64,000 nt of DNA from Bacilli bacterium (GTDB taxonomy: Bacteria > Bacillota_I > Bacilli_A > RF39 > UBA660): NCBI GenBank assembly GCA_045125935.1, contig JBGVNW010000068.1, positions 55,323-119,322 on the forward strand, given 5' to 3'. This document shows, piece after piece, positions 469-64,000 of the stretch (position 1 is the first letter of the stretch; each line of letters begins with the position of its first letter). The notes under the pieces were generated by a model, which had not been told where the DNA came from, ran no database searches, and saw nothing but the letters and a program-made list of their open reading frames with translations. The position numbers were made by a program, and so were the translations under genes.

Positions 469-499
469 ACAGTATTTATGAAAATAATTATTATTTTTA

Positions 500-531
500 T
501 TTGGATATTTTATTTTTTATTGTTATATTTG
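500..531 (+). promoter_or_regulatory. Bacteroidota-type promoter opening the + strand gene array
   Basis: TTTG(500-503)-N20-TATATTTG(524-531). It lies in the divergent spacer between the minus-strand tnpB and the + strand genes. Confidence 0.6.
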
Positions 532-648
532 TAATAGAAAATAAAAATATATAATATACAATATAAAAATATTTTTACAAATTATTAAATATTTTTCTAT
601 AAAAACAATGAACAATTATAATACATAAAAAATTATAAAAACACGAGT

Positions 649-786
649 ATGAACACCGCTGATTTAAAAAAGAATTCAAAGGAAGAACTTATTATTTATA
701 TAGAAAAGTTGAGCAGAGATATGATGAATATTCAAGAAGAAAATCTTGAGTTAAGAAAAGCAAATCAACAAATGCAAGATTATATT
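649..786 (+). CDS. small hypothetical protein (45 aa, coiled-coil-like)
   Basis: My own translation: MNTADLKKNSKEELIIYIEKLSRDMMNIQEENLELRKANQQMQDY*. It lies downstream of the promoter at 500-531 and is below the track size cutoff. Confidence 0.3.
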
Positions 787-847
787 AATCAACTTGATAG
801 TACAAACAAATTTGAAAAAATAAATTAACATTTAAAAATATTTTATT

Positions 848-1165
848 ATGGTAGAAAACAACGCAAAAGTAAATTATTCAGACCTAATTGAACTCGGTTT
901 TAAAAAAATTAATTGTAGTAGTGATACAGTTTTCCTTTCTCAATATGGTTATCCATACTTCTTTCTTGCATATGGAGAAGAAGGTGATCAAGTTACATTG
1001 GAATGGAGTCCAGTAGATCGTAATGTAAATCTTTATCTCAATTCACACACATATCAATCAGGATTGTCACTATCAGAAGTCAAAAAGATTGTAAATATGT
1101 TGAAAGATGATGTGTGGGAAAATATATCTGCTGCTATCAACAATATTACGCCTGAAAATGAATAA
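848..1165 (+). CDS. hypothetical protein (105 aa)
   Basis: ORF track. First long ORF after the promoter at 500-531. No recognisable motif. Confidence 0.55.
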   Translation: MVENNAKVNYSDLIELGFKKINCSSDTVFLSQYGYPYFFLAYGEEGDQVTLEWSPVDRNVNLYLNSHTYQSGLSLSEVKKIVNMLKDDVWENISAAINNITPENE

Positions 1166-1385
1166 TTTAAAAAACATCCCTGTTGAACAATACAACAGAC
1201 CTGCTATATGTTGTCATCTTGATGAGTTCGATCCTATATTTGCAAATGAAAGCGACTTCGTTGAAGTTTGTGAGTGGAAAAACGGAGAAGGATATGACAT
1301 CACAATCAACGAAAGACAATATGCATTTACACACGGTGAGTTGGATGCTATCAATTATTTAATAACACAACTAAATAAAATTTAA
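1158..1385 (+). CDS. hypothetical protein (75 aa)
   Basis: Track ORF 1107..1385. I moved the start to the internal ATG (MNNLKNIPVEQ...), which overlaps the upstream stop and avoids a 59-nt overlap. Confidence 0.5.
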   Translation: MNNLKNIPVEQYNRPAICCHLDEFDPIFANESDFVEVCEWKNGEGYDITINERQYAFTHGELDAINYLITQLNKI

Positions 1386-1390
1386 AAATT

Positions 1391-1834
1391 ATGAGTCAAT
1401 ATTTAGGTTTTGAATTGGTCAATAAGGCAAATCCTGAAATCAAAGTTGATTTAGGTTATTGGTGTACTTCTATCGCAAGAGGTATCAGTTATAACTTCGC
1501 AGGTATCTTCCCTTATACCGATAGCGATGTCAAGTTGGATTATGAAAAATTGAAATCTTGGATTGAAATTCTACACGAAGGCATTGACGACTATAAGAAA
1601 AATCTCCGTAAGCAACAAGACAAGAAGAAAGAAAATATTGAACTATTACTCAAAGCACAATCAGAAGCAGCGGTGATTGCTATCAAGGAAGATATTCAAT
1701 ATAATGAGGAGTCTATTGCTGACTGGGAGCAAGAAATTGAAGATTGGACAATGGTAGAAAACAAATTGGAATTCATTCTGAATATTCTTGATGAGAATAA
1801 AGAAGAATGGTATGTAACTTATTGTAATTCATAA
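1391..1834 (+). CDS. hypothetical protein (147 aa)
   Basis: ORF track. Starts 5 nt after the upstream stop and ends at an AT palindrome. Confidence 0.6.
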   Translation: MSQYLGFELVNKANPEIKVDLGYWCTSIARGISYNFAGIFPYTDSDVKLDYEKLKSWIEILHEGIDDYKKNLRKQQDKKKENIELLLKAQSEAAVIAIKEDIQYNEESIADWEQEIEDWTMVENKLEFILNILDENKEEWYVTYCNS

Positions 1835-1852
1835 AATAATAATTATTTTTAT

Positions 1853-2230
1853 ATGTGTAGTGACGAATTAGTAAACGCAAATTTAAAACAAGAGTGGTTA
1901 GATGCGATAAAACCATATGTTATTGCACAAGGATTTCAGGATGCGGAATTCGGATTTGAGTATGTTCAAATCGGTAGATTACCTGGTCAAACAATTTCTA
2001 TCAACGGGCGTGTAATGCAAAAACCTGGTAAAGAAATTAAGATTAAGTATATAATTGAGTTTGTGGGTGACGGTTGGGTTGCTAATGTGGATGAAACCAA
2101 TAAAGAAGAATTCACACAAGTAAAATTTGAATCATATCAAGACAATGAATTGATATCAGAATATGAAGAAGCATTTTTTTGGGATAATCCTAACTATTTT
2201 ATTGAATCTTTTAATCGAATATTTAGATAA
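1853..2230 (+). CDS. hypothetical protein (125 aa)
   Basis: ORF track. Follows the palindrome at about 1834-1852. Confidence 0.6.
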   Translation: MCSDELVNANLKQEWLDAIKPYVIAQGFQDAEFGFEYVQIGRLPGQTISINGRVMQKPGKEIKIKYIIEFVGDGWVANVDETNKEEFTQVKFESYQDNELISEYEEAFFWDNPNYFIESFNRIFR

Positions 2231-2263
2231 AAAAATTATTAACAATTTAAAAAAAAATTAAAA

Positions 2264-3763
2264 ATGAGTATTGCAGTATTAATTAGTGTTATTATTGGAG
2301 TTGTTCTCCTATTATGTGTAATCCTATCATCTTATGTAAAGGCTCCCCCTTCGGTAGCATTTCTAATCTCTGGTCTTTCAAAAGAACCAAGAGTTTTAAT
2401 TGGTAAAGGTGGATTTAGGATTCCTTTCTTTGAACGAATTGATAAAGTTTTTCTAGGTCAAATGTCTGTGGATATCAAGACCAGTGTTGCTGTACCCACA
2501 AAGGATTTTATTAATGTGAATGTGGATGCAGTAGCAAAAGTTAGAGTAGTTCCAAATCAAGAGGGAATCAGGTTGGCAGGGAAGAACTTCCTGAACATGA
2601 CTCAAACCGATATTCAACATCAATTGAAGGATTCTCTTGAAGGTAATATGCGTGAGATTATTGGAACGCTTGATCTTGTTTCTTTGAATACAGACCGAGA
2701 CTCATTCTCTGACCAAATTGCACAAAAGGCGGGAAAGGATATGAACAAGTTGGGCATTGAGATTCTTTCTTGTAACATTCAAAATGTAACAGATGAACAA
2801 AATCTAATCAAAGACCTTGGTGCAGATAATACATGGCGAATTAAAAAGGACGCTGCTGTCACAAAAGCACAATCTGAGAAGGAAATAGCTATTGCACAGG
2901 CAGAGGCGAACAAAGAGGCGAATGATGCACGAGTAACTTCAGAAACTGCTATCGCAGAGCGTAACAACGAACTCGAAATTAAACGAGCAGACTTGAAGAA
3001 AGAAGCAGATGTGAAAAAAGCTATGTCAGATGCCGCATATGCTATTCAAGAACAAGAACAACAAAAACTCATAAATGAGAGAACTGTCGAAGCACATATT
3101 GCCAGAACAAAAAAAGAACAAGAACTCACAGAAGAAATGATTAAGGTTCGTGAGAATAATCTTCAAGCAGAGATCGCAAAACAAGCTGATGCTGAACGAT
3201 ATAAGTTAGAGGTTGAAGCTGCTGCAGATAAAAAGAAAACAGAGTTGGATGCAGAAGCAGAACTTACATTGAGAAAGCGTCAAGCAGAAGCGGAAGCATA
3301 TGAAGCAGAACAAAAAGCAAAGGCAGTTAAAGCAGAAGCAGATGCTATCAAATATAAGATGTTAATGGAAGCAGAAGGTATCAAGGCAGTTGGTGAAGCA
3401 GAAGCTGCCAAAATCAAGGCAGTTGGTGAAGCAGAAGCGAAAGCTCTCGATGCAAAAGCGAAGGCATATAAGAATTACAATGACACAATCAAGTTGCAAG
3501 AAGCACTTGTGGAAGTGCTACCAGAAGTTGCAAAGAATGTTGCTGCACCTATCGCTGCTCTTAAAGATGTAACTTTATATGGTGGTGGAATGAGTCAGGT
3601 TTCGGAGAATGTTCCAGTTATGACACAAATGGTTTATGACACAATGTCTGCTGCAACAGGTGTGGACATGAAGGAAATTCTTAAAACAAAGACACTCACT
3701 GCACAAACAGATAGAAATGTTAATGTGAATGGTGCGGAAGATGTAATTATTACAACAAAATAA
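2264..3763 (+). CDS. flotillin-like SPFH/band-7 membrane protein (FloT/YuaG/YqiK family)
   Basis: N-terminal TM helix, then an SPFH core (GKGGFRIPFFERIDKV...VDAVAKVRV). This is followed by a long A/E/K-rich flotillin coiled coil (AEADAIKYKMLMEAEGIKAVGEAEAAK...) and a tail (VLPEVAKNVAAPIAALKDVTLYGGG). The whole layout is co-linear with B. subtilis FloT as I remember it. Confidence 0.85.
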   Translation: MSIAVLISVIIGVVLLLCVILSSYVKAPPSVAFLISGLSKEPRVLIGKGGFRIPFFERIDKVFLGQMSVDIKTSVAVPTKDFINVNVDAVAKVRVVPNQEGIRLAGKNFLNMTQTDIQHQLKDSLEGNMREIIGTLDLVSLNTDRDSFSDQIAQKAGKDMNKLGIEILSCNIQNVTDEQNLIKDLGADNTWRIKKDAAVTKAQSEKEIAIAQAEANKEANDARVTSETAIAERNNELEIKRADLKKEADVKKAMSDAAYAIQEQEQQKLINERTVEAHIARTKKEQELTEEMIKVRENNLQAEIAKQADAERYKLEVEAAADKKKTELDAEAELTLRKRQAEAEAYEAEQKAKAVKAEADAIKYKMLMEAEGIKAVGEAEAAKIKAVGEAEAKALDAKAKAYKNYNDTIKLQEALVEVLPEVAKNVAAPIAALKDVTLYGGGMSQVSENVPVMTQMVYDTMSAATGVDMKEILKTKTLTAQTDRNVNVNGAEDVIITTK

Positions 3764-3782
3764 TAATTATTATTTCTAATGA

Positions 3783-4122: not shown

Positions 4123-4142
4123 AAAATAATAATTATTATTTT
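4123..4142. repeat. perfect 20-bp A/T palindrome AAAATAATAATTATTATTTT
   Basis: Read directly from the sequence and equal to its own reverse complement. One of nine perfect copies in the window. Confidence 0.95.
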
Positions 4143-6964: not shown

Positions 6965-7255
6965 ATGGATAAAGGAATTCAACGAGTTAAAGAAAGCATT
7001 GTAAAAGACATTAAAAATTACAGAGAAACTTGTAAATTTATCGCTCCGTTGTGTAGAAAATATTTTGAGAAGGTATACGACAGTAGTTGGCAACATTTCA
7101 GTGGCTGGAGATTTAATGACAACTGCAACTTAATCAACATAACATACTGGTATGAGGACTTTTATAGCAACACAGAAACATACACAGAATATGAAGATGT
7201 TATTATACCTTTGGAAGATATCATTAAAATGATGGATGAACCAGATGAAAAATAA
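6965..7255 (+). CDS. hypothetical protein (96 aa)
   Basis: ORF track. Its stop runs into the perfect palindrome at 7255. Confidence 0.6.
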   Translation: MDKGIQRVKESIVKDIKNYRETCKFIAPLCRKYFEKVYDSSWQHFSGWRFNDNCNLINITYWYEDFYSNTETYTEYEDVIIPLEDIIKMMDEPDEK

Positions 7256-7325
7256 AAATAATAATTATTATTTTAAAGAAACTATCAAAAATATTTGGTA
7301 GTTTCATTTTTTTATGTTATATTTG
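7255..7325 (+). promoter_or_regulatory. family-A cassette: palindrome + hairpin/T-run + promoter (copy 1 of 5)
   Basis: Perfect palindrome at 7255-7274. A 12-bp hairpin GAAACTATCAAA-AATA-TTTGGTAGTTTC at 7278-7305 is followed by A-T7. The -33 TTTG (7294-7297) lies inside the 3' arm of the hairpin, and the -7 box TATATTTG (7318-7325) follows after an N20 spacer. Confidence 0.75.
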
Positions 7326-10097: not shown

Positions 10098-10148
10098 TAT
10101 AAAAATAATTATTATTTTATTGATGTTTAACTTTAAAACTTTATATAA

Positions 10149-11632: not shown

Positions 11633-11703
11633 AAAATAATAATTATTATTTTAAAGAAACTATCAAAAATATTTGGTAGTTTCATTTTTTTATGTTATAT
11701 TTG
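11633..11703 (+). promoter_or_regulatory. family-A cassette (copy 2 of 5)
   Basis: Perfect palindrome 11633-11652. Hairpin 11656-11683 plus T-run. -33 TTTG 11672-11675. -7 TATATTTG 11696-11703 after an N20 spacer. Confidence 0.75.
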
Positions 11704-15324: not shown

Positions 15325-15771
15325 ATGGAACTTAAGCTTTGGATAGCAAGAGATAAAGATAATGAAACTTTATGGTTATTTTTTGATGAACCAAAACTTG
15401 ATAAAGATACATTGTTATGGAATGGTACTAAATTATATTGTGGAGCAGCAAGTCCAGGATTGGACAAACACAAAGAAATTCTACCAGAACTAACATTTGA
15501 AAATTCACCTAAAAAAGTTGCTTTAAACCTATTACCACAAACAATAAAAGAAGGTGATGAATGTTTAGAACCTATAACTTATATTGGCTATCAAAAATTA
15601 TTTAAGGGATTTAAAGTTGGCGATGAAGTGATGACAGCAAAAGGCTCAAAGGGAGTAAAAACAACTATTAATGGTTTCGTTAAAATAGCAACAGGTAATG
15701 GTAAAGAAGAAATCAACGCAAGAACAACACACGGCTGGATAGCAATTGATCAACTTGTAAAAATAAAATAA
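15325..15771 (+). CDS. hypothetical protein (148 aa)
   Basis: ORF track. Ends at a palindrome (15765-15781). Confidence 0.6.
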   Translation: MELKLWIARDKDNETLWLFFDEPKLDKDTLLWNGTKLYCGAASPGLDKHKEILPELTFENSPKKVALNLLPQTIKEGDECLEPITYIGYQKLFKGFKVGDEVMTAKGSKGVKTTINGFVKIATGNGKEEINARTTHGWIAIDQLVKIK

Positions 15772-15802
15772 TTATTATTTTTTGAAAAAAACCTCCAAAA
15801 TT

Positions 15803-19024: not shown

Positions 19025-19294
19025 ATGGTAATAGCAATGATAGTATTCGGGCTATTGTATGGAATAGCCTTCTTTTGGAATCTTTCAACGGACGATAGCA
19101 ATAGTAAAGCATCTTCCGTGTGTCTTTCAACAGTATCAGCAATTATATTCTTTGCATTATTTTCAACATACGAAAGTAGAAATACACCCACAGCGAAATC
19201 TGTTTACGAAGGAAAAACAACACTTGAAATAACCTACAAAGATAGTATTCCTGTTGATACAGTTGTAGTTTTTAAAGACGAATTTAAAAAATAA
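19025..19294 (+). CDS. small membrane protein, paralog of 5099..5350
   Basis: See 5099..5350. Its stop codon lies inside the perfect palindrome at 19288. Confidence 0.65.
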   Translation: MVIAMIVFGLLYGIAFFWNLSTDDSNSKASSVCLSTVSAIIFFALFSTYESRNTPTAKSVYEGKTTLEITYKDSIPVDTVVVFKDEFKK

Positions 19295-19307
19295 TAATTA
19301 TTATTTT
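19288..19307. repeat. perfect 20-bp A/T palindrome bridging a stop and a start codon
   Basis: AAAATAATAATTATTATTTT. It contains the TAA of 19025..19294 and abuts the ATG at 19308. There is no promoter in between. Confidence 0.95.
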
Positions 19308-23462: not shown

Positions 23463-23533
23463 AAAATAATAATTATTATTTTAAAGAAACTATCAAAAAT
23501 ATTTGGTAGTTTCATTTTTTAATTGTATATTTG
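23463..23533 (+). promoter_or_regulatory. family-A cassette (copy 3 of 5)
   Basis: Perfect palindrome 23463-23482. Hairpin 23486-23513 plus T6. -33 TTTG 23502-05. -7 TATATTTG 23526-33 after an N20 spacer. Confidence 0.75.
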
Positions 23534-25615: not shown

Positions 25616-25616
25616 A

Positions 25617-41269: not shown

Positions 41270-41282
41270 TAATTATTATTTT
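41263..41282. repeat. perfect 20-bp A/T palindrome
   Basis: AAAATAATAATTATTATTTT, containing the TAA stop of the preceding gene. Confidence 0.95.
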
Positions 41283-41876: not shown

Positions 41877-41908
41877 TAATTATTATTTTTATTTTTCTAC
41901 CAGCAAAA

Positions 41909-42826: not shown

Positions 42827-42888
42827 TTGCTGTCCGATGAGGTAAAATAAAAATAATAATTATTTTTTTCAAGAAAGTTGCTGAAAAA

Positions 42889-43699: not shown

Positions 43700-43821
43700 C
43701 AAAATATACTGAAGCAATCTGAAAAATAATGATGATTGCTGTCGGGAAAATAAAAATAATTATTATTTCAGAAATGAAATGATATGAAATGGATAGCAAA
43801 AGAGATTGCTATTTTACAAAT

Positions 43822-45740: not shown

Positions 45741-45821
45741 ATCTGAAATCAAAAGATAGCGAATGCTAACGGAGAGAAAAAAAAAATAATTATTATTTCT
45801 GAAATCAAAAGCAATTTACTT

Positions 45822-46273: not shown

Positions 46274-46361
46274 GACAGCAATCGTCAATTATTTTCGTTT
46301 GCTATTAGAAATAATAATTATTTTTTGTTATATTTAATATGTAATTAAATGAAATCAGAAG

Positions 46362-46676: not shown

Positions 46677-46767
46677 AGACACTATATATACTTTCTCCGA
46701 ATGGTGGTGGATGCTGGCAGTATGTCACTCCGTCACCATTTGTTAATAATAATTATTTTTATTTTTT

Positions 46768-48405: not shown

Positions 48406-48528
48406 AAATTATTATTTTTTGGATACCTTTTTGTTCTAAAAGTCAGATTTATTTCGGGCTGTTTGAAAAATCATAGGGAAAAAATAAAAATCATTGATCT
48501 AAAAGTCGGATTTTGATTTTTAAAAGTA

Positions 48529-48561: not shown

Positions 48562-49132
48562 ATTATAAAAAGGATCCTTTTCTCAAGTTTGCTATCGACA
48601 GCAGGTCGTCGATAAAAGGATCCTTATGGATGTGAGATAACTGTAATGTACTACATTAGCAAATTATTGATATTCTTATAGATAATATTTTATATGTTTT
48701 TTTTGAAATTTGACATTTGTTATAAAAAAAAATTATTATTATTTCGGAGAGATGAAGGAGAGATGATGATTTGCTATCGGAAAGCAACCCTTGAAATTCA
48801 CACACGCATATATTATATAAGGTGTATCCATCCTGATAGCAAAACCTGCAACTACCTGATCACCTGCTATCACCTGATATCAGAAGGATGAAACAGGATA
48901 CCTGTTTTAAGGTCCTATAGTATTACAAAAATTTCAACGATCACCCTTCGGGTGGTATATTTGGTCGTCTGAAAAATTTAAAGCGATTTTAGGACATTTA
49001 TGTGCGTCTTTTAAATCTGCTATCTGAAATCCGACAGCAAAATAAAAAAATAATTATTATTTTTCTCATAAATGTCTGATTTTCAATCAGATAAAAAATA
49101 ACATTATTTTTTGAAAAAAAGTTGGTAAAAAA

Positions 49133-49446: not shown

Positions 49447-49635
49447 ATGTATAGCAAATGTACAGAGTGGTGTCACCACTGCGAAACCGAAGTGATGCTG
49501 TCAGCAGAAATGACAATTCAGAAATGTCCTAATTGTGGCAAGTATATTATCCCTTGCTGTATGTGTGATTGGGACAATAGTGATTGTGGTGAGTGTGAGT
49601 TAGCAAAAATTTGTGAAACTAAAAATAAAAAATAA
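49447..49635 (+). CDS. Cys-rich zinc-ribbon-like protein (62 aa)
   Basis: CHHCE...CPNCG...CCMC...CGEC. Confidence 0.55.
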   Translation: MYSKCTEWCHHCETEVMLSAEMTIQKCPNCGKYIIPCCMCDWDNSDCGECELAKICETKNKK

Positions 49636-49666
49636 TTATTTTTTTCTGAAAAAAGTTTGGAAAAAG

Positions 49667-49732: not shown

Positions 49733-50047
49733 ATGAGAACGAAAGAACAATGGTTGAAAGATTTCACACACAAATGCTTTAAGGATAATAGATATGAATT
49801 TCACCCTTATGGTTGTATGGTGGTAAAACCAAATAAGAAAGAGGTAGTTTGTTTCTATCCTATTCTATCAGAATCTGGTGAAGAAGTATTTTCTTTTGTG
49901 GTTAATACATTCAAGGTTAAATATCTTGACGAAAACACTTGGTATAGAGATTGCTCTAATGTAAATTATTCAGAGAATTGCACAAAACATCGCTTATATG
50001 ATGTAGATAAAGCATATAAGATTTACTCAAAGTATGCCAAAAAATAA
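49733..50047 (+). CDS. hypothetical protein (104 aa)
   Basis: ORF track. Confidence 0.6.
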   Translation: MRTKEQWLKDFTHKCFKDNRYEFHPYGCMVVKPNKKEVVCFYPILSESGEEVFSFVVNTFKVKYLDENTWYRDCSNVNYSENCTKHRLYDVDKAYKIYSKYAKK

Positions 50048-50079
50048 TTATTATTTTTGAAAAAAAAATTTGGAAAAAG

Positions 50080-50817: not shown

Positions 50818-50931
50818 ATTGTCCGTTATGTCAATGTCCCTAAAATAGAATTAGGGGCATTGATAGAAAACGACAATTGCTAATATCGGATAGCAAAAAA
50901 AATAATTATTATTTTTAAAACAATTAAGATT

Positions 50932-51277: not shown

Positions 51278-51559
51278 GTGCTTGACAAGATTGCGAGTTA
51301 TTATATGAGTATTCCAACAATGCGTAAGGGTGAGGAGTATTACGAAAAAGGAAATTTACAACTCAATTACGGTAAAGAGAAAACTAAAGATTTTATATTG
51401 ACAGAAGCATCTTGGTATTGGGGGAGTTATGATTATTGGTCAGTAAAGATTGACAGCATTGGTATATCTATCACCTTCAAACCAGAACACAGAAGTCAAG
51501 AACAGTTGGTTTATATTAGTTGGAGTATGTATTGCGAACTCACAAGTCTATTTGACTAA
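51278..51559 (+). CDS. hypothetical protein; possibly extends from ATG 51152 through an in-frame TAG (51209-51211)
   Basis: The track ORF starts at GTG. The same frame is open upstream except for one TAG: MFMDLGKNYLEKLDLGKIE*AYKDGLAIREKLTDSNPKFIKSVLDKI.... The 145-nt gap has no cassette. Confidence 0.5.
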   Translation: MLDKIASYYMSIPTMRKGEEYYEKGNLQLNYGKEKTKDFILTEASWYWGSYDYWSVKIDSIGISITFKPEHRSQEQLVYISWSMYCELTSLFD

Positions 51560-51596
51560 AAAATAATTATTATTTTTAAAAAAAGTTTGGAAAAAG

Positions 51597-51663: not shown

Positions 51664-52503
51664 ATGAAATATTCAACAATTTATAGAACAGAAAATACTC
51701 AACGATATTTCAAAGATATCAGCAGTTCAAAATATGATCCTATCGAAGAAGATGATGATGTTAGAAAAATGTTCAGAGATAGAGAACAATACAGAGATAT
51801 TATCATAAACGCTCATATCAGATTGGTAGCAACACTCGCAAAGGAGTATGATGCTAATGATAAGTTTATGGACTACAACCAAGAAGGTATAGAAGGTTTG
51901 TTGGGAGCTTTCGAAAAATACGATCCAGATAGCAATGCTAAATTTTCTACTTACGCATCATATTGGATTAAGGCAAAGATGTCTATGCTCTGTAAAGATT
52001 TCAATGTGGTGCAACGAAGTAATCAATCAAAGATTGGTTCAAAAGCACAGAAGTTCAAAGAAAAATTCTTCGCAGAAAATATGCGAGAAGCATCAACAGA
52101 TGAAATCGTTGAACATCTTTCGAAAGAACACAACATCGATATTCTGTATGATACTGAAATACACAACATTTCAGTGAAAAGTATCAACGACGAGTTAGAT
52201 GATGACGGACTCACACCTGAAACAAGTGGAGAGTTCGCAGTAAAAACAGCGTGCGAAAACGATTTCGTCAAAACTATATATGACGAAGATCTAAAAGCTG
52301 CTGTCAGCAAAATGATGAAAGTTCTCAACGCAAAAGAAATGGAATACATTACAAGACATATCTTTAACGAAGAAACTTATAATAGTATTGCAGATACTGC
52401 TGGTTGTACTAATGAGCGAGTTCGCCAGATTGTTGAAGGTGGATTGCGTAAAATGAGAAAGTGTGAATTTACACAAAAACATTTCGCTTGCTTCTTAAAA
52501 TAA
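51664..52503 (+). CDS. phage-encoded sigma-70 family RNA polymerase sigma factor
   Basis: Region 2 is IINAHIRLVATLAKEY...YNQEGIEGLLGAFEKYDPDSNAKFSTYASYWIKAKM. Region 4 is YNSIADTAGCTNERVRQIVEGGLRKMRK. Confidence 0.85.
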   Translation: MKYSTIYRTENTQRYFKDISSSKYDPIEEDDDVRKMFRDREQYRDIIINAHIRLVATLAKEYDANDKFMDYNQEGIEGLLGAFEKYDPDSNAKFSTYASYWIKAKMSMLCKDFNVVQRSNQSKIGSKAQKFKEKFFAENMREASTDEIVEHLSKEHNIDILYDTEIHNISVKSINDELDDDGLTPETSGEFAVKTACENDFVKTIYDEDLKAAVSKMMKVLNAKEMEYITRHIFNEETYNSIADTAGCTNERVRQIVEGGLRKMRKCEFTQKHFACFLK

Positions 52504-52539
52504 AAAAAATTATTATTTTGAGAAAAAAATGGTCAGAAA

Positions 52540-52950: not shown

Positions 52951-53001
52951 GCACTCTCTAAAAAAAATAATTATTATTTTTAGAAAAAAATCATCTGAAA
53001 A

Positions 53002-53500: not shown

Positions 53501-53902
53501 ATGGTTGATATAAGAAACTTAACGAGATTCCCTATATTAGACTTAAAAGAAGAACTTACTAATAATGGGGTTAAGAGTGGAAAGCACTCGGAGATTTTTA
53601 ACTACTTTAAGAAGCATCTTGATGATACAGAGTTTTATTGTATCTCTCAATATAATCCTGTACAAAAGAATATTACTTTCGGTCGTTGCGAGAGTATTAG
53701 TAGAATTTTTTTAACAAATGATTATTCTAACTTTTTTATTACAGCACCTTGTGATGTTGAAGGTTTAAAGACTAAAGCTGTCATTCAGGGAATCGAACCT
53801 AAAAATGGAAGACAACTTCAAATAGCGAGAGATTTTAGGGTAGTATATCTGTCAAAGAAAGCAGTCGATATCTACTTATCAAAATGTGAAGAACAAAAAT
53901 AA
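53501..53902 (+). CDS. hypothetical protein (133 aa)
   Basis: ORF track. Confidence 0.6.
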   Translation: MVDIRNLTRFPILDLKEELTNNGVKSGKHSEIFNYFKKHLDDTEFYCISQYNPVQKNITFGRCESISRIFLTNDYSNFFITAPCDVEGLKTKAVIQGIEPKNGRQLQIARDFRVVYLSKKAVDIYLSKCEEQK

Positions 53903-53915
53903 TAATTATTTTTTT

Positions 53916-54444: not shown

Positions 54445-54485
54445 GATAGACATCGTCGGGATGATGAGGTCTATCTTTTTTTTTT
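54445..54485 (+). terminator. intrinsic terminator (CATCGTCG..GATGAGG family)
   Basis: GATAGACATCGTC-GGG-ATGATGAGGTCTATC followed by T10. Confidence 0.75.
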
Positions 54486-54522
54486 AATAATAATTATTTT
54501 TTTGAAAAAAGTTGCTGAAAAA

Positions 54523-55162: not shown

Positions 55163-55212
55163 TTTCTCCCTAATAAAAAAATAATTATTATTTTGAAAAA
55201 AGTTGCTGAAAA

Positions 55213-55901: not shown

Positions 55902-55948
55902 CGAAAAAATAATTATTATTTTTGAAAAAAGTTAAATCAAATACAATT

Positions 55949-56650: not shown

Positions 56651-56694
56651 GATTAAAAAATAATTATTATTTCTAACATTAAACAATAGACATT

Positions 56695-57042
56695 ATGAAT
56701 ATCTTTGAATATGCTTCGTCTTGTGAATATTGCTTTGAGCAATTTCTTCAAGCAGTTGGTAAGGAACGCAAAACTACTTTCTACTCGGATCTGTCGATAG
56801 CAGAGTGGTGTGGTACATCTGCTATTAAGGATACTTATAGACAAGTTATGGATTCTTGGGGATATGACCTTGAATATATGTGTGAATGGGTGATTGCTCT
56901 CAACCAGAAAATCTGGCAACACAATAATAGCAATCCAGAAATTGGAAAGTTATATGATTTGCTCTGGAGATCTGCTGACGAGTATTGTATGAATCACTTT
57001 AAGGGTGATGACCTGACAGCATACCTGCGATATGTAGATTAA
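56695..57042 (+). CDS. hypothetical protein (115 aa)
   Basis: ORF track. Confidence 0.6.
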   Translation: MNIFEYASSCEYCFEQFLQAVGKERKTTFYSDLSIAEWCGTSAIKDTYRQVMDSWGYDLEYMCEWVIALNQKIWQHNNSNPEIGKLYDLLWRSADEYCMNHFKGDDLTAYLRYVD

Positions 57043-57078
57043 AAAAATAATTATTTTTTGAAAAAAACCACCAAAAAA

Positions 57079-57150: not shown

Positions 57151-57522
57151 ATGAAAAAACTTTCTTTACAATGTGTGATTGAAGAGGAAATCTTGTTCAC
57201 AAACAAAAAAATATTTAAGGATAACGAAGAATATTCGTACACATGTAAATGCTATGACGGTGTTGCAATTTGTACTCCAACTCCTGATGATGAAGAAGAA
57301 GATGAAACAAATCTACCTATGATTATCGCAACTTATCCAAAACGTAAAGATGTACTATTGGACAGCGAATTGTGTAGAAGTATTCTTGACTATCGTGGTT
57401 TATATGATTTGAGAAAAAATCAAATTACATTTGGCGACATAATGCTAAAATTGGGCAAACTCACAAAAGTCAAAGATTCTGAAATAGAGTTAGCATTACA
57501 ACTGTTTTCTGCTAATATCTGA
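57151..57522 (+). CDS. hypothetical protein (123 aa)
   Basis: ORF track. Confidence 0.6.
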   Translation: MKKLSLQCVIEEEILFTNKKIFKDNEEYSYTCKCYDGVAICTPTPDDEEEDETNLPMIIATYPKRKDVLLDSELCRSILDYRGLYDLRKNQITFGDIMLKLGKLTKVKDSEIELALQLFSANI

Positions 57523-57559
57523 AAAATAATTATTATTTTGGAAAAAAGATAGCAAATAA

Positions 57560-57626: not shown

Positions 57627-57911
57627 ATGAAACTTACAAACAAAGACAAGTTTTATTTGCTATCAAAAGGTTATAGCAATGAAGATTTCACAGCAATCGA
57701 AGATGCTTCAAAAAATATGGTATATACAATATTCGACACACAAGACGAATTTGCACCAGAAGCAAAAATCAAAAAAACAACTGCTATCGAGTTGTTGGGC
57801 AGAGAACGCTATCTGTTAGCAATCGCAAGAGCAACATTTCATAACTCTGCTGTCAGAACACATAGCACGATAGAGAGAATGGGAATTTTATTTGAAAGAA
57901 CTAACTTCTAA
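57627..57911 (+). CDS. hypothetical protein (94 aa)
   Basis: Track ORF 57561..57911 starts inside the promoter. I prefer the ATG at 57627 (MKLTNKDKFYLL...). Confidence 0.55.
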   Translation: MKLTNKDKFYLLSKGYSNEDFTAIEDASKNMVYTIFDTQDEFAPEAKIKKTTAIELLGRERYLLAIARATFHNSAVRTHSTIERMGILFERTNF

Positions 57912-57927
57912 AAAATAATTATTTTTT

Positions 57928-58128
57928 ATGGCAACAACTACTTATAGAGTAAAATATTGCCCGCCGAATCCAGGATGGAACTCAAGAAAACTAAAAGAAA
58001 ACAGGTGGTTCACATCCCTGAAAGATTTACAGGAATATGTTGAGAGCAATCCTTCTGTTATCAATGAAATCTGGGTTAGTAATAATGGAAAGAAATTTGT
58101 TAAATTTAATTATAATGAAATAATATGA
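57928..58128 (+). CDS. hypothetical protein (66 aa)
   Basis: ORF track. The palindrome abuts the ATG. Confidence 0.5.
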   Translation: MATTTYRVKYCPPNPGWNSRKLKENRWFTSLKDLQEYVESNPSVINEIWVSNNGKKFVKFNYNEII

Positions 58129-58901: not shown

Positions 58902-58940
58902 AAAAAAATAATTATTATTTTGAAAAAAGTTCTCAAAATA

Positions 58941-59426: not shown

Positions 59427-59462
59427 TTCCAAACCAAAAACAAAAAATAATAATTATTTTTT

Positions 59463-59723
59463 ATGAAGAATACAGAATATTCGCAACTATACAGAGAATA
59501 TCGCTCATTGGTAGAAAACTTTAACACAATCGTCGAACGCATCATCAAGACAAAGTTTGAAATGGATTATCTATGGAAGTATAAGAAAGATTATCCATCC
59601 GACTGGAAGCGAATGGCAGAGAAACTCACATCTGATAGAAATGATTCAAAATCAATTCGATTTGCTATCAGAGAACTAAAGTTAAAAATGAGAGAAGTCA
59701 ATTCAAATTTCACTAAAAAATAA
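59463..59723 (+). CDS. hypothetical protein (86 aa)
   Basis: ORF track. Confidence 0.55.
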   Translation: MKNTEYSQLYREYRSLVENFNTIVERIIKTKFEMDYLWKYKKDYPSDWKRMAEKLTSDRNDSKSIRFAIRELKLKMREVNSNFTKK

Positions 59724-60141: not shown

Positions 60142-60159
60142 AAAATAATAATTATTATT

Positions 60160-60399
60160 ATGATAAAAGAAGGTACAATGTTTTCGATGAAAGCAAACTA
60201 CGACGAAAACAAGGAATATAAATATGTGGTCATAGAACGACTTGACAATATTGCTTGTGGCAGAGGAGGTTGGTTGTGTGTTGAGCAGGAAGCAATATCA
60301 AAAAAACCTGATAACATCTCACCATTTGATTGCTGGCGAGTAACAGATAAGTTTCTTGAAACCCAAATACAACGAGGCGTAATTAAAATCATTAACTAA
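60160..60399 (+). CDS. hypothetical protein (79 aa)
   Basis: ORF track. The palindrome abuts the ATG. Confidence 0.55.
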   Translation: MIKEGTMFSMKANYDENKEYKYVVIERLDNIACGRGGWLCVEQEAISKKPDNISPFDCWRVTDKFLETQIQRGVIKIIN

Positions 60400-60938: not shown

Positions 60939-60982
60939 AAAAAAAAAAATAATTATTATTTTGAAAAAAAGTTCTCAAAAAA

Positions 60983-61716: not shown

Positions 61717-61752
61717 TGTATCCTCCCTCAAATATTTGGGGGAGGACATACA
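61717..61752 (+). terminator. hairpin after 61377..61709
   Basis: TGTATCCTCCC...GGGAGGA(CA)TACA. An A-run and the palindrome follow. Confidence 0.4.
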
Positions 61753-61792
61753 AAAAAAAAATTATTATTTTGTTATATTTAAGTAGAAAACA

Positions 61793-61999: not shown

Positions 62000-62020
62000 A
62001 AAAAAAATAATTATTATTTT

Positions 62021-62706: not shown

Positions 62707-62746
62707 AAAAAAATAATTATTATTTTGAAAAAAAGTTGCCGAAAAA

Positions 62747-62806: not shown

Positions 62807-63058
62807 ATGGAAAGTATCAGAAAACACATTTACAGTTGGTCTGAAGAAGGCAAGGTAAACCTCATCAATGAGTTGATGTCTTACATTGAACAATCTGAAA
62901 TCGGAGAGCAAATCGGATATATGGAGGAACTCAATGAAGTCAAAAGCAATTGGTGGAATTTGATTCATAGTGGAATTTACCACGATGCTATCGGTAAAGT
63001 AGTAGATGCTCAATTCAGAGGGTCGTTAATAATAGTAAATGTAGCAGAAGAATATTAA
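62807..63058 (+). CDS. hypothetical protein (83 aa)
   Basis: Track ORF 62756..63058 starts inside the promoter. I prefer the ATG at 62807 (MESIRKHIYSW...). Confidence 0.55.
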   Translation: MESIRKHIYSWSEEGKVNLINELMSYIEQSEIGEQIGYMEELNEVKSNWWNLIHSGIYHDAIGKVVDAQFRGSLIIVNVAEEY

Positions 63059-63095
63059 AAAATAATTATTATTTTGAAAAAAAGTTGCTGAAAAA

Positions 63096-63127
63096 TTTGG
63101 TAGATTGAAAAAAAAGCAGTAACTTTG
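63096..63127 (+). promoter_or_regulatory. Bacteroidota-type promoter (family B)
   Basis: TTTG-N20-TAACTTTG. Confidence 0.7.
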
Positions 63128-63176
63128 TAGTGTAAATAATAAACAAAGCAATTAACAACAATTAAATGAAATCGTT

Positions 63177-63383
63177 ATGAAAGCAAAAATTCAAACAATC
63201 GCAACAATCATAATAGGAGTAGTAGTAGCACTTCCTTGTGTTATGATATTCAATGACAACGAAAGTTTTTTGCCTAATTTTATTGGTATGGCATACTTCG
63301 CTGGTTTGATAGCATTTTGCAAATACACCAAACTCGGCAAACGCTTCGCTAAAAGGTTAGAAGAAATAAATGATAAATTTTGA
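63177..63383 (+). CDS. small membrane protein (68 aa)
   Basis: ORF track. Confidence 0.5.
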   Translation: MKAKIQTIATIIIGVVVALPCVMIFNDNESFLPNFIGMAYFAGLIAFCKYTKLGKRFAKRLEEINDKF

Positions 63384-63402
63384 AAAAAAAGTTACCGAAA
63401 AA

Positions 63403-63434
63403 TTTGGTAGTTACAAAAATAATCACTAACTTTG
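63403..63434 (+). promoter_or_regulatory. Bacteroidota-type promoter (family B, without a palindrome)
   Basis: TTTG-N20-TAACTTTG. Confidence 0.7.
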
Positions 63435-63478
63435 TAGCAGAAAAAAGAAACAATAACAACAACTAAATAATAGAAACT

Positions 63479-63925
63479 ATGACAAAGATTTATTTGACAA
63501 TCGCAGAAAGTCTTGGAACAGACAACGAATTTTCAACAGAAGTGTTCGTTTATATGACACCACAAGAAGCAGGCGAAATGGCATCATCGCTCATCGCCGA
63601 TATGATTAAAACAATGTATGACGGAGAGCAAGAAATCGATCCAACAAGACATTGGGAACTTGAAGGAGATGGATGGTTCTTTAGAGTGAGAGTTGAAGAA
63701 GCAAAAATCCCAGTAGAAGTGAAAAGAACAAAGAGATTTGCTTCAAACATTTCGTGGGACACGGACACCGAGTCTGAAACTATCTTCGACGTGCTCTATG
63801 TCAACGACTTGCCTTCATTGGTAGAAATCCCAGAGTGTGTAGATGATGAAAGCATCGCCGACTATCTGTCAGATGAATTTGGATTCACTGTAATGTCGTT
63901 TGTAATTAAACACGAAAATCTCTAA
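63479..63925 (+). CDS. hypothetical acidic protein (148 aa)
   Basis: ORF track. Confidence 0.6.
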   Translation: MTKIYLTIAESLGTDNEFSTEVFVYMTPQEAGEMASSLIADMIKTMYDGEQEIDPTRHWELEGDGWFFRVRVEEAKIPVEVKRTKRFASNISWDTDTESETIFDVLYVNDLPSLVEIPECVDDESIADYLSDEFGFTVMSFVIKHENL

Positions 63926-63934
63926 ATATAAAAA

Positions 63935-63967
63935 CTAATCGGGGGATATATGAAATCCCCCGATTAG
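63935..63967 (+). terminator. 13-bp hairpin after the last gene
   Basis: CTAATCGGGGGAT-ATATGAA-ATCCCCCGATTAG. A palindrome-like A/T run follows. Confidence 0.5.
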
Positions 63968-64000
63968 AAAAATAATAATTTTTTTTTCAAGAAACATATA

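What the first reader, a model, noticed from the sequence alone, without database searches (positions are those of the whole stretch)
481..63990. A/T-only palindrome (AAAATAATAATTATTATTTT) marks about 55 gene ends
Nine perfect 20-mers occur at 4123, 7255, 11633, 19288, 23463, 28014, 36107, 37889 and 41263.

About 45 shorter or asymmetric forms (core AATAATTATT flanked by an A-run and a T-run) sit at or just after stop codons. Their TAATAA often supplies the stop codon itself.

Some copies are followed about 20-30 nt later by a promoter. Others directly abut the next ATG, with no promoter in between (19288/19308, 27678, 31672, 57912, 59445, 60143, 62003). The element is therefore not simply part of the promoter.

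As RNA it could form only a weak all-A:U hairpin. A DNA-level role seems at least as likely as termination. Candidates are a dimeric protein binding site or a cruciform. An RNA-level role as an RNase or S1/translation-enhancer site in a host that lacks Shine-Dalgarno signals is also possible.

A perfect 20-mer of this composition should not recur by chance in 64 kb.
Basis: seen in the sequence. Interest (0 to 1): 0.7.

Follow-up and report, generated by a model that had tools for sequence, protein, structure and literature searches.

The report
Invariant A/T palindrome at phage gene junctions
An 18-20 bp all-A/T palindrome sits in 57 gene junctions of this uncultivated Bacteroidota-type jumbo-phage segment and about once per kb in its relatives; it looks like a DNA-level control module of repeated promoter/terminator cassettes, not an RNA hairpin terminator.

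Summary
The window holds 9 perfect 20-mers, 49 exact cores (AATAATTATT; 1.4 expected) and 8 degenerate copies. All but one are intergenic.

The consensus is AAA-W-AATAATTATT-W-TTT. The perfect 20-mer is a minority form.

Context in the window:
- 28 of 57 copies precede a Bacteroidota-type promoter (TTTGG-N19-TAnnTTTG). In 26 of these the spacing is fixed at 33-37 nt, which puts the palindrome centre near -66.
- 12 copies abut the next ATG.
- The rest lie ahead of A-rich leaders or have no clear partner.

Diverged relatives from metagenomes (563 kb) carry 544 exact cores in the same architectures. More distant phages with the same promoter type have none.

Canonical hairpin+T terminators are separate features, and 50 copies lie between a terminator and the next promoter. 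The RNA hairpin is negligible (0 to -2.3 kcal/mol) and the flanking positions do not covary as pairs. Both points favour a DNA-level role.

Best reading: the invariant module of PeSL-like junction cassettes, probably a dyad binding site for a clade-specific protein acting on transcription. An extended UP-like element for RNA polymerase alpha is the main rival. No experiment exists, so the mechanism is inferred.

The parts
478..497 (.). A/T element, divergent region; + promoter -33 at 500 (17 nt)
   Evidence: minus-strand TnpB starts about 468
1833..1852 (.). A/T element abutting ATG 1853
3757..3776 (.). A/T element supplying the stop of ORF 2264-3763; hairpin+T terminator follows
4123..4142 (.). 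perfect 20-mer after a terminator (dG -17); promoter -33 at 4183 (55 nt)
7255..7274 (.). perfect 20-mer, promoter-linked (-33 at 7294, 34 nt)
10099..10118 (.). A/T element, ATG 10149 at 45 nt, no promoter match
11633..11652 (.). perfect 20-mer, promoter-linked (-33 at 11672)
15762..15781 (.). A/T element, promoter-linked (-33 at 15803, 36 nt); its TAA is the stop of ORF 15325-15771
19288..19307 (.). perfect 20-mer abutting ATG 19308; supplies the stop of ORF 19025-19294
23463..23482 (.). perfect 20-mer, promoter-linked (-33 at 23502)
24526..24545 (.). A/T element, promoter-linked (-33 at 24565)
25614..25633 (.). A/T element, promoter-linked (-33 at 25653)
26070..26089 (.). degenerate copy (AATAATTTTT) abutting ATG 26090
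27676..27695 (.). A/T element abutting ATG 27695; supplies the stop of the radical SAM ORF
28014..28033 (.). perfect 20-mer, promoter-linked (-33 at 28054)
28500..28519 (.). degenerate copy (AAAAATTATT), promoter-linked (-33 CTTG at 28539)
31674..31693 (.). A/T element abutting ATG 31691
33232..33251 (.). A/T element, no clear downstream partner
35167..35186 (.). terminator - element - promoter (-33 at 35206)
36107..36126 (.). perfect 20-mer, promoter-linked (-33 at 36147)
37889..37908 (.). perfect 20-mer; a -7-like box TATATTTG about 36 nt downstream, no -33 match
40266..40285 (.). A/T element, ATG 40291 at 20 nt
41263..41282 (.). perfect 20-mer, no clear partner (promoter 41377 lies 109 nt downstream)
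41870..41889 (.). A/T element, promoter-linked (-33 at 41909); supplies the stop of ORF 41433-41876
42850..42869 (.). A/T element, promoter-linked (-33 at 42889)
43750..43769 (.). A/T element, no clear partner
45780..45799 (.). A/T element, A-rich leader, ATG 45822 (37 nt), no promoter match
46308..46327 (.). A/T element followed at once by a -7-like box GTTATATTTAA; ATG 46362
46743..46762 (.). A/T element, ATG 46768 (methylase) at 20 nt
47723..47742 (.). the only intragenic copy (in frame in methylase ORF 46768-48405); kept in 2 of 3 relatives compared
48399..48418 (.). degenerate copy (AAAAATTATT) overlapping the methylase stop codon
48726..48745 (.). degenerate copy (A-run + TTATTATTA)
49044..49063 (.). 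A/T element, no close partner
49094..49113 (.). degenerate copy with 1-nt insertion (AATAACATTATT), promoter-linked (-33 at 49133)
49626..49645 (.). A/T element, promoter-linked (-33 variant CTTG at 49667)
50038..50057 (.). A/T element, promoter-linked (CTTG at 50080)
50896..50915 (.). A/T element, leader, ATG 50932 (31 nt)
51557..51576 (.). A/T element, promoter-linked (CTTG at 51597); upstream of the phage sigma factor gene
52500..52519 (.). degenerate copy (A-run + TTATTATTTT), promoter-linked (-33 at 52540)
52961..52980 (.). A/T element, promoter-linked (-33 at 53002)
53896..53915 (.). A/T element abutting ATG 53916; supplies the stop of ORF 53501-53902
54484..54503 (.). terminator - element - promoter (-33 at 54523)
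55175..55194 (.). A/T element, promoter-linked (-33 at 55214)
55903..55922 (.). A/T element, spacer-like GAAAAAAGTT then leader, ATG 55949, no promoter match
56654..56673 (.). A/T element, leader, ATG 56695
57041..57060 (.). A/T element, promoter-linked (-33 at 57079); hairpin+T-run overlaps the promoter
57520..57539 (.). A/T element, promoter-linked (-33 at 57560)
57909..57928 (.). A/T element abutting ATG 57928
   Evidence: kept in 4 of 4 relatives
58902..58921 (.). A/T element, promoter-linked (-33 at 58941)
59444..59463 (.). A/T element abutting ATG 59463
   Evidence: kept in 7 of 10 relatives
60142..60161 (.). A/T element abutting ATG 60160 (13 nt: A at -3, -6, -12, -13)
60943..60962 (.). 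terminator - element - promoter (-33 at 60983)
   Evidence: kept in 4 of 4 relatives
61752..61771 (.). degenerate copy followed at once by a -7-like box GTTATATTTAA; ATG 61793
62001..62020 (.). A/T element abutting ATG 62021
62707..62726 (.). terminator - element - promoter (-33 at 62747)
63056..63075 (.). A/T element, promoter-linked (-33 at 63096)
63969..63988 (.). degenerate copy (AATAATTTTT) at the window end

Best explanation
The element is a cis-acting DNA signal. It is the one nearly invariant module of repeated junction cassettes in the long block of small, same-strand genes of an uncultivated jumbo phage. That block is presumably the early/accessory block. The phage uses Bacteroidota-type host promoters.

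The cassette order is: stop codon, optional hairpin+T terminator, A/T palindrome, optional spacer with two A-tracts plus a host-type promoter, A-rich leader, ATG.

I propose that the 16-18 bp dyad AAA-W-AATAATTATT-W-TTT is the recognition site of a sequence-specific protein, probably a dimer, that is particular to this phage clade. At promoters the site is centred near -66.5, about three helical turns upstream of the -33 element. From there the bound protein would tune or switch initiation across the whole early block. At promoterless junctions the same bound protein would act as an insulator or roadblock for elongating polymerase, in the manner of a stoperator.

Shown here: anatomy, statistics, spacing, conservation, clade specificity, and the fact that some copies lie in DNA between a terminator and a promoter. 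Inferred: that a protein binds, which protein, and the direction of the effect.
For: - Non-random and strictly intergenic: 49 cores against 1.4 expected, and 1 of 49 inside an ORF against about 40 expected.
- The core is almost invariant. With AAAW/WTTT flanks there are 38 window and 357 locus copies with 0 mismatches; most 1-mismatch hits are only register shifts. Single-arm forms are 7% or less.
- Fixed geometry. The distance from core start to the -33 TTTG is 33-37 nt in 26 window copies, and 33-36 nt in 180 of 200 copies in relatives. The spacer has 225 distinct sequences in 260 copies yet a length of 23-26 nt.
- DNA level. 75 of 558 copies have a strong hairpin+T terminator immediately upstream (control 18 of 551). 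50 of these are followed by a promoter, so the element lies between the transcript end and the next start. This order is kept in all six sequences compared at one junction, the window and five relatives.
- The RNA hairpin is worth only -1.3 to -2.3 kcal/mol for the perfect form and 0 to -0.7 for the common forms. The flanking positions are preferentially non-complementary.
- Clade specificity. A relative sampled through a protein rather than through the motif (L173, radical SAM 73% aa) has 11 cores in 21.6 kb, and all 4 of its intergenic promoters are preceded by the element. More distant phages with the same promoter type (L175, L177) have none. Only 6 hits were found in 185,579 bacterial genomes. 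Five are isolated promoter-like sites with one or two cores in 43-47% GC Bacteroidales/Paludibacteraceae DNA; the sixth (L165) looks like a misbinned phage contig.
- Promoterless copies are retained in relatives whose flanking genes share about 50-60% aa identity.
- In relatives the element also precedes a second promoter class (GTAACAT-N16-GTATATAT) at 15, 24-26 or 36 nt, roughly whole helical turns apart.
Against: - No binding protein was identified. Pfam scans of about 60 window proteins gave no convincing partner.
- The two W positions depend on context: A..A at promoters, T..T before ATGs (p = 5e-17). Rare variants keep only one arm: the right arm before promoters, the left arm before ATGs. 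The halves may therefore have separable roles.
- Near-perfect identity could owe something to copy-and-paste spread and recombination among cassettes.
- Relatives were mostly found with a pattern that contains the motif, which biases the sample. Only L173/L174 are unbiased.
- No expression data exist.
Confidence: 0.4

Rival explanations
1. Extended UP-like element or upstream bent DNA. The A-run/T-run palindrome would be a far-upstream docking site for the alpha C-terminal domains of host RNA polymerase, or a static bend. It would add to the two A-tracts of the spacer and boost early promoters without any dedicated factor. Promoterless copies would be leftovers of cassettes that lost their promoter.
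For: - Fixed spacing, with the palindrome on the same helical face as the -33 element.
- The spacer has A-tracts at -1..-6 and -13..-18 relative to TTTG.
- Promoter-linked copies prefer the right arm TTATTATTTT.
- Sub-lineage L103 keeps only the right arm before promoter-like sequences.
- The element serves two promoter classes, as expected for a sigma-independent contact.
- UP elements are reported for a Bacteroides phage promoter (bioRxiv 10.1101/2025.03.18.644028).
- Some promoterless copies still carry spacer-like GAAAAAAGTT followed by a leader.
Against: - The element spans about -57 to -76, beyond the canonical -40 to -60.
- The exact TAA/TTA pattern is invariant, whereas the spacer A-tracts are only 75-90% A.
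- About half of the copies have no promoter, yet they are retained in relatives.
- Other phages with the same promoter type lack it.
Confidence: 0.22
2. Recombination linker. The conserved element, with its promoter where present, would mainly be short shared homology at gene boundaries. It would let co-infecting relatives swap transcription units, as PeSLs do in T4-like phages. Its identity would be maintained by that traffic rather than by a regulatory role.
For: - Gene order is heavily shuffled among relatives, gene by gene.
- The neighbour gene is kept at only 9% of element+promoter junction comparisons, against 43% for element-only and 32% for no-element junctions.
- The element is present at the orthologous junction in only 54 of 123 comparisons, so it goes with junctions rather than genes.
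- Short-read assemblies break at these repeats.
- There is a PeSL precedent (PMC2839356, PMC4122927).
Against: - Element-only junctions are not broken more often than junctions without the element (a crude test).
- 18-20 bp is very short for homologous exchange.
- This reading does not explain the fixed spacing to promoters.
- It does not explain why the 18 bp stay invariant while the adjacent spacers and promoters diverge.
Confidence: 0.13
3. RNA-level punctuation. In polycistronic mRNA the A/U-rich element would act as an unstructured ribosome landing or re-initiation site for the next cistron in a host without Shine-Dalgarno pairing. Alternatively it would be a cleavage or stability site for an RNase.
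For: - 164 of 558 copies abut an ATG.
- The ATG distance favours 10/13/16/19 nt (75 against 25 and 35; p = 2e-7). That phase puts A at -3, -6, -12 and -13, the positive determinants found in Flavobacterium (PMC6847099).
- The stop codon of the upstream ORF lies in or within 12 nt of the element in most copies.
Against: - Copies between a terminator and a promoter are not expected in mature RNA.
- Genes that abut the element have less A and more U at -3 than other genes (0.40 against 0.64 A), which is unfavourable according to PMC6847099.
- Many operon-internal junctions do without the element.
- An RNA role gives no reason for a fixed distance to a downstream promoter.
Confidence: 0.13
4. Promoter for the phage-encoded sigma factor (gene 51664-52503) or another phage-directed polymerase.
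For: A sigma-70 family gene with regions 2 and 4 lies in the block. The element is clade specific.
Against: - 18-20 bp is too short to hold both -35 and -10 type boxes at normal spacing.
- Many copies end 0-5 nt before the ATG, leaving no room for a start site and leader.
- Relatives have a separate candidate second promoter class.
Confidence: 0.04
5. Weak intrinsic terminator or cruciform, or a mere by-product of TAA-rich, A/T-rich gene ends.
For: The element is palindromic, with an A-run and a T-run. The genome is 27-33% GC.
Against: - Fold energies are near zero.
- The flanks are non-complementary.
- Canonical terminators are present beside the element.
- Shuffles give 1.4 cores against 49 observed.
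- Other A/T-rich relatives lack it.
Confidence: 0.03

Closest known systems
PeSL (promoter-early stem-loop) cassettes of T4-like phages (Arbiol et al. 2010, PMC2839356; Comeau et al. 2014, PMC4122927)
   Same: - Repeated intergenic cassettes in blocks of small genes of unknown function.
- They contain the upstream gene's stop codon in an A/T-rich stretch, a strong host-sigma promoter, and a stem-loop terminator placed before, within or overlapping the promoter.
- They are associated with gene-by-gene shuffling between relatives.

All of this is seen here.
   Different: - The promoter here is the Bacteroidota -33/-7 type and there is no Shine-Dalgarno sequence.
- The A/T-rich part is not generic. 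It is an almost invariant 16-18 bp dyad at a fixed distance.
- About half of the copies stand alone without a promoter, which the PeSL description does not include.
- Whether the phage is T4-like was not examined.
Stoperators of Cluster A mycobacteriophages (PMC6550527, PMC9283540)
   Same: - Many copies of one short motif spread through short intergenic spaces.
- Some lie within promoters, but most are not promoter-associated.
- The motif is specific to a phage subgroup.
   Different: - Stoperators are asymmetric 13-bp sites oriented with transcription, number 20-30 per genome, and are bound by the monomeric immunity repressor of temperate phages.
- Here the site is dyad-symmetric and all A/T, occurs about once per kb, and no repressor or integrase was seen.
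- Binding and roadblock action are untested.
UP elements / upstream A-tract DNA of strong bacterial and phage promoters (E. coli rrnB P1 type; recalled from memory, Ross et al. 1993 and Estrem et al. 1998). UP elements are reported in Bacteroides phage promoter P_BfP1E6 (bioRxiv 10.1101/2025.03.18.644028)
   Same: - A/T-only sequence upstream of the -35/-33 element at fixed spacing.
- The right arm plus spacer (ATTATTATTTTGAAAAA) resembles the E. coli consensus AAAWWTWTTTTNNNAAA.
   Different: - The element lies one helical turn further upstream (about -57 to -76).
- It is invariant rather than degenerate, and palindromic.
- It is present at many junctions that have no promoter.
- It is absent from other phages with the same promoter type.
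Start-associated sequences (SAS/ESAS) of Cluster K mycobacteriophages (recalled from memory, Pope et al. 2011)
   Same: A short conserved motif repeated immediately upstream of many start codons in one phage cluster, with function unknown.
   Different: SAS includes the ribosome-binding region and is asymmetric. Here there is no Shine-Dalgarno pairing, and the motif equally precedes promoters.

Membership tests
PeSL-type composite promoter/terminator cassette | Repeated intergenic motif containing a consensus host-sigma early promoter | tested here: met
   There are 34 matches to TTTG-N19-21-TAnnTTTG on the + strand against 4 on the - strand. This is the Bacteroidota consensus of PMC6847099. 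The test is a sequence match only; activity was not tested.
PeSL-type composite promoter/terminator cassette | Upstream gene's stop codon lies in an A/T-rich stretch upstream of the -35 box | tested here: met
   The stop lies within the element or 12 nt or less upstream in most copies.
PeSL-type composite promoter/terminator cassette | Stable stem-loop (terminator/attenuator) at variable positions in the cassette | tested here: met
   50 copies have a hairpin+T-run upstream of the element. In 78 copies a hairpin overlaps the -33 element and spacer. 128 promoter-linked copies have none detected.
PeSL-type composite promoter/terminator cassette | Concentrated in plastic regions; breakpoints of modular shuffling | tested here: inconclusive
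   Shuffling is strong. Gene adjacency is kept at 9% of element+promoter junction comparisons. The test is crude, and element-only junctions are not hotter than junctions without the element.
PeSL-type composite promoter/terminator cassette | Host phage belongs to the T4-like myoviruses | not tested
   No core structural or replication genes lie in the window. Relatives sit on contigs of 110-330 kb.
Stoperator | [quoted passage not shown] | tested here: not met
   The site is dyad-symmetric. Its only asymmetry is at the W positions, and both orientations are common (245 against 174).
Stoperator | Many sites, most of them not in promoters, in short intergenic spaces | tested here: met
   29 of 57 window copies, and more than half of the copies in relatives not selected by the search pattern, have no promoter. 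48 of 49 cores are intergenic.
Stoperator | Bound by the phage immunity repressor, which blocks elongation | not testable with these tools
   No repressor or integrase was found among the proteins scanned.
UP element | A/T-rich DNA at about -40 to -60, directly upstream of the -35/-33 element | tested here: not met
   The palindrome spans about -57 to -76. Positions -37 to -55 are filled by the spacer with its two A-tracts.
UP element | Always part of a promoter | tested here: not met
   About half of the copies have no promoter.
UP element | Contacted by the alpha C-terminal domain of RNA polymerase | not testable with these tools
   This needs footprinting or in vitro transcription.
Intrinsic (rho-independent) terminator | Stable G+C-rich hairpin followed by a U-run | tested here: not met
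   The fold energy is 0 to -2.3 kcal/mol, and the T-run is consumed by the stem. True terminators of dG -13 to -19 lie next to the element.
REP element with RAYT transposase | Associated Y1 (IS200-like) transposase | tested here: not met
   The only Y1_Tnp hit (10149-10628; E = 4.7e-4, below the Pfam cut-off) is a protein with a signal peptide and no match to a solved structure.

The most novel reading that the evidence does not exclude
A virulent-type jumbo phage clade of Bacteroidales may run a genome-wide, stoperator-like control system. A dedicated phage protein dimer would recognise one invariant all-A/T dyad about every kilobase. The same site would serve as an upstream promoter operator (centre near -66) and as an inter-cistron roadblock or insulator. 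That would switch or partition the whole early gene block in a host phylum whose transcription and translation signals differ from the textbook ones.
Probability: 0.3. Interest if true: 0.7.

Novelty: new variant of a known kind. Interest (0 to 1): 0.55.

Why it matters
Almost nothing is known about gene regulation in the large phages of gut and rumen Bacteroidales. Their hosts use -33/-7 promoters and no Shine-Dalgarno pairing.

Here one short, invariant and easily synthesised DNA word marks about one junction per kilobase across hundreds of kilobases of related metagenomic sequence. It therefore offers:
- a clean handle for finding its reader, whether a phage protein or polymerase alpha, by pull-down;
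- a marker for this phage clade in metagenomes;
- an explanation for why short-read assemblies of these phages fall apart;
- a ready source of modular promoter, terminator and insulator parts for Bacteroides engineering.

If a dedicated binding protein exists, this would extend the stoperator idea from temperate actinophages to a very different phage-host system.

Tried and rejected
- Near-identical DNA in GenBank phages: none.
- The 20-mer in IMG/VR: 38 contigs with a single copy each, chance hits in A/T-rich viruses.
- The composite pattern and the sigma protein in IMG/VR: nothing.
- The sigma and radical SAM proteins against GenBank phages: only distant hits of 33% identity or less, including Lak megaphages.
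- GTDB genomes: 6 hits. Five are isolated promoter-like sites with one or two cores in 43-47% GC Bacteroidales/Paludibacteraceae DNA, and one is a 27% GC contig that looks misbinned. The element is therefore not a host signal.
- Literature search for the core sequence and for A/T palindromes in phage early regions: nothing relevant.
- Whitaker et al. 2017 could not be read.
- REP/RAYT idea: rejected.
- Hairpin, cruciform or terminator: rejected on energies and non-complementary flanks.
- Promoter for the phage sigma factor: judged unlikely on geometry.
- Rfam: only one tRNA at the gathering threshold.
- The adjacency test is crude, because small diverged neighbour genes can be missed by tblastx. 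It is used only as a trend.
- L179, picked as a 69% relative through the radical SAM protein, turned out to use sigma-70-type promoters and lacks the element. That gene is therefore not a reliable marker of relatedness.

Full report
THE OBSERVATION

The nine perfect copies of AAAATAATAATTATTATTTT are at the stated coordinates, and none is expected by chance. The 10-nt core AATAATTATT occurs 49 times, against 1.42 expected and a maximum of 6 in shuffles. Weight-matrix and (A-run)(TAA)n(TTA)m(T-run) scans add eight degenerate copies, giving 57 in all.

The window has 27-33% GC and constant positive GC and AT skew. Essentially all of its roughly 130 small ORFs are on the + strand. Only one core (47728, in frame in a DNA methylase gene) lies inside an ORF, where about 40 would be expected from the 83% coding density.

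WHAT THE MOTIF REALLY IS

The consensus is AAA-W-AATAATTATT-W-TTT. The two W positions prefer to be the same base rather than complementary (AA 245, TT 174, TA 100, AT 66; odds ratio 6.5, p = 1e-25). The AA and TT forms are reverse complements of each other.

In (TAA)n(TTA)m terms the counts are:

| Form (n,m) | Window | Relatives |
|---|---|---|
| (1,2) | 23 | 201 |
| (2,1) | 6 | 147 |
| (2,2) | 12 | 58 |
| (1,1) | 4 | 63 |

Forms with only one arm make up 7% or less. Genuine single-base variants of the core are rare.

SURROUNDINGS

The block is full of promoters of the Bacteroidota type, TTTGG-N19-TAnnTTTG-TA: 31-35 on the + strand against 4 on the - strand. The consensus is the one given in PMC6847099. 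There are no Shine-Dalgarno sequences, and the leaders are A-rich with ATTATG start contexts. This points to a Bacteroidota host; that is an inference.

Of 34 credible promoters:
- 23 have an exact core 33-37 nt upstream of the -33 TTTG;
- 3-4 have a degenerate copy in the same place;
- one has the core at 17 nt;
- about 6 have none.

With G of the -7 box at -5 (PMC6847099), the AA|TT centre lies at about -66.5 and the 20-mer spans -57 to -76.

The stretch between the element and TTTG is variable in sequence (225 distinct sequences in 260 copies) but constant in length (23-26 nt from the core end). It has A-tracts at -1..-6 and -13..-18 relative to TTTG.

The 57 window copies divide as follows:

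| Context | Copies |
|---|---|
| Promoter-linked | 28 |
| Abutting the next ATG (12-20 nt from core start) | 12 |
| Ahead of an A-rich leader, ATG 31-49 nt away, no promoter match | 8 |
| No clear partner | 9 |

TERMINATORS ARE SEPARATE FEATURES

Strong hairpin+T-run terminators (dG -13 to -19) lie either just upstream of the element or downstream of it. The upstream cases are 4128, 35172, 54489, 60948 and 62712. In the downstream cases the 3' arm of the hairpin carries the -33 TTTGG and the T-run lies in the promoter spacer (7260, 11638, 15767, 23468, 24531, 25619, 57046).

As RNA the element folds at -1.3 to -2.3 kcal/mol in its perfect form, and at 0 to -0.7 in the commoner forms. As DNA it folds at about -3.

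RELATIVES

GenBank phages and IMG/VR gave nothing close.

A metagenome scan with the composite pattern (element, gap, -33, gap, -7) returned 120 or more loci. These are diverged relatives: 65-88% nt and 40-90% aa identity in shared genes. In their 563 kb there are 544 exact cores, about one per kb, with the same consensus and the same spacings.

Context classes over 558 copies:

| Class | Copies |
|---|---|
| Element-promoter | 128 |
| Element with terminator overlapping the promoter | 78 |
| Terminator-element-promoter | 50 |
| Element-ATG | 150 |
| Terminator-element-ATG | 14 |
| Other | 138 |

These loci were selected through the motif, so I also sampled relatives through the radical SAM protein. 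Its homologues sit on contigs of 110-330 kb, so these are jumbo phages.
- L173/L174 (73% aa) has 11 cores in 21.6 kb. All four of its intergenic promoters are preceded by the element, and seven copies abut ATGs.
- L175/L176 (54% aa) and L177/L178 (39% aa) have the same promoter type but no core.
- L179 (69% aa) uses sigma-70-type promoters and has none.

In 185,579 bacterial genomes the composite pattern hits only six places. Five are isolated promoter-like sites with one or two cores in 43-47% GC Bacteroidales/Paludibacteraceae DNA. One is a 27% GC contig with three cores that looks misbinned. The element is therefore specific to a phage clade and is not a general host signal.

CONSERVATION AND TURNOVER

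At junctions compared between the window and five relatives, the element is intact while the upstream 3' region, the terminator stem and the downstream coding sequence diverge. This holds for copies that abut an ATG as well as for terminator-element-promoter copies. Identity falls to background within 6 nt upstream of the element.

The element belongs to junctions, not to genes. In 123 comparisons where the downstream gene has a homologue:
- 54 have the core at the same offset;
- 15 have it elsewhere within 250 nt;
- 54 have none.

Gene order is heavily shuffled. The neighbouring gene is kept at 9% of element+promoter junction comparisons, 43% of element-only comparisons and 32% of comparisons without the element (a crude test).

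ARGUMENTS ON MECHANISM

(a) RNA hairpin, terminator or RNase III-type site. This is rejected on the fold energies, on the non-complementary flanks and on the presence of true terminators alongside.

(b) DNA level. Fifty copies lie between a strong terminator and the next promoter, so they are largely untranscribed, and this order is kept in all six sequences compared at one junction. The fixed distance to promoters across unrelated spacers implies a spacing constraint on the DNA. In relatives the element also precedes a second promoter class (GTAACAT-N16-GTATATAT) at 15, 24-26 or 36 nt, roughly whole helical turns apart. These represent few independent junctions.

(c) Translation. Among copies that abut an ATG, the spacing favours the phase that puts A at -3, -6, -12 and -13 (75:25:35, p = 2e-7). 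These are the positive determinants in Flavobacterium (PMC6847099). Overall, however, these genes have less A and more U at -3 than other genes. It looks as if start contexts accommodate a constrained element, rather than the element being an optimised initiation region.

(d) Context tuning. Promoter-linked copies are mostly A..A and ATG-linked copies mostly T..T (p = 5e-17). Rare one-armed variants keep the right arm before promoters and the left arm before ATGs. The halves may therefore have partly separable roles.

(e) The invariance of the TAA/TTA pattern, the dyad symmetry, the 16-18 bp size and the clade specificity are typical of a site read by a dedicated dimeric protein. They are not typical of degenerate UP elements or of bent DNA. 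No candidate protein was identified.

VERDICT

The closest described system is the PeSL cassette of T4-like phages. PeSLs combine a stop codon in A/T-rich DNA, a strong host promoter and a stem-loop at variable positions, occur in blocks of small genes of unknown function, and mediate modular shuffling (PMC2839356, PMC4122927).

This is a new variant of that kind in a different host phylum. Its distinguishing feature is an invariant palindromic module at fixed geometry that also stands alone at promoterless junctions. In that respect it resembles stoperators (PMC6550527, PMC9283540), but it fails their defining asymmetry.

My best explanation is a DNA-level site for a clade-specific protein acting on transcription (0.40). 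It is followed by an extended UP-like or bent element read by polymerase alpha (0.22), a recombination linker (0.13), RNA-level punctuation (0.13) and minor alternatives. All mechanistic steps are inferred, and the experiments that would decide between them are listed.

Noticed in passing
window-wide, densest 36000-64000: A second strongly over-represented motif, TGCTRTC/GAYAGCA (extended tTGCTRTCA). It has 76 + 79 copies, 20-60 times the composition expectation, is equally common on both strands, and lies mostly inside coding sequence. It is also present in the unbiased relative L173 (20 in 21.6 kb) but absent or near absent in L175-L178, so it co-occurs phylogenetically with the A/T element. 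Function unknown.
   Followed up: partly
window 43290-44830: A tRNA-like 5' half (about 43290-43330) is followed by a match to a group I intron (43379-43629; Rfam RF00028, 46.6 bits against a gathering score of 50, E = 3.7e-10). An HNH endonuclease ORF follows (44264-44830). This is probably an intron-split tRNA gene. Only tRNA-Leu(taa) at 44924-45008 is called as intact.
   Followed up: partly
window 1-468 (minus strand; L171:2-1129) and 20561-22197: A TnpB (OrfB_IS605 / Cas12f-like TNB) gene runs leftwards from about 468, so the first A/T element (478-497) sits in a divergent region. A second TNB-domain ORF at 21469-22197 may be split from 20561-21373.
   Followed up: partly
window 40700-41269: An in-frame TAA (41024-41026) interrupts a gene that is a single ORF, with CAA at that codon, in relative L074 (91% aa identity). 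This is a nonsense mutation/pseudogene or a read-through.
   Followed up: partly
window 7294, 11672, 15803, 23502, 24565, 25653, 41377, 57079: Terminator hairpins whose 3' arm contains the -33 TTTGG and whose T-run lies in the promoter spacer. These are overlapping terminator/promoter units of the PeSL kind.
   Followed up: partly
loci L072, L083, L088, L096, L107, L108, L110, L113, L116, L132, L140, L149, L156: A second candidate promoter class, GTAACAT-N16-GTATATAT. It occurs 17 times on the gene strand against 1 on the other, often with a CGGAT..ATCCG stem in its spacer. It is not seen in the window and may depend on the phage sigma factor.
   Followed up: no
window about 37950 and about 53445: A repeated AAAAATGGCGCATTTGTATA(A)TTATATA in two long intergenic regions. 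It could be another regulatory signal.
   Followed up: no
window 51664-52503; 26090-27682; 39710-40225; 46768-48405; 2264-3763; 44264-44830; 50158-50817; 30971-31660; 59126-59377: Recognisable genes in the block: a sigma-70 family factor (regions 2 and 4), a radical SAM enzyme, two DNA methyltransferases, an SPFH/flotillin protein, two HNH endonucleases, an ICEA-like nuclease and a WYL_2 protein. Most other ORFs have no Pfam match.
   Followed up: partly
L039, L040, L167-L172 (Logan contigs): Short-read unitigs of this same phage end at the repeated element+promoter (for example at window about 7283 and about 25659). The repeats therefore fragment assemblies.
   Followed up: no
L179/L180 (JAEIGA010000031.1, 169 kb): A 27% GC jumbo-phage contig shares the radical SAM gene (69% aa). 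It uses TTGTAAC...TGTATAAT promoters, encodes an IF3-like protein and lacks the element. The radical SAM gene thus travels between phages of different host types.
   Followed up: partly
L103: A sub-lineage in which 5 of 7 copies have lost the TAA arm (A-run + TTATTA(TTA) + T-run). These copies still sit upstream of promoter-like sequences.
   Followed up: no
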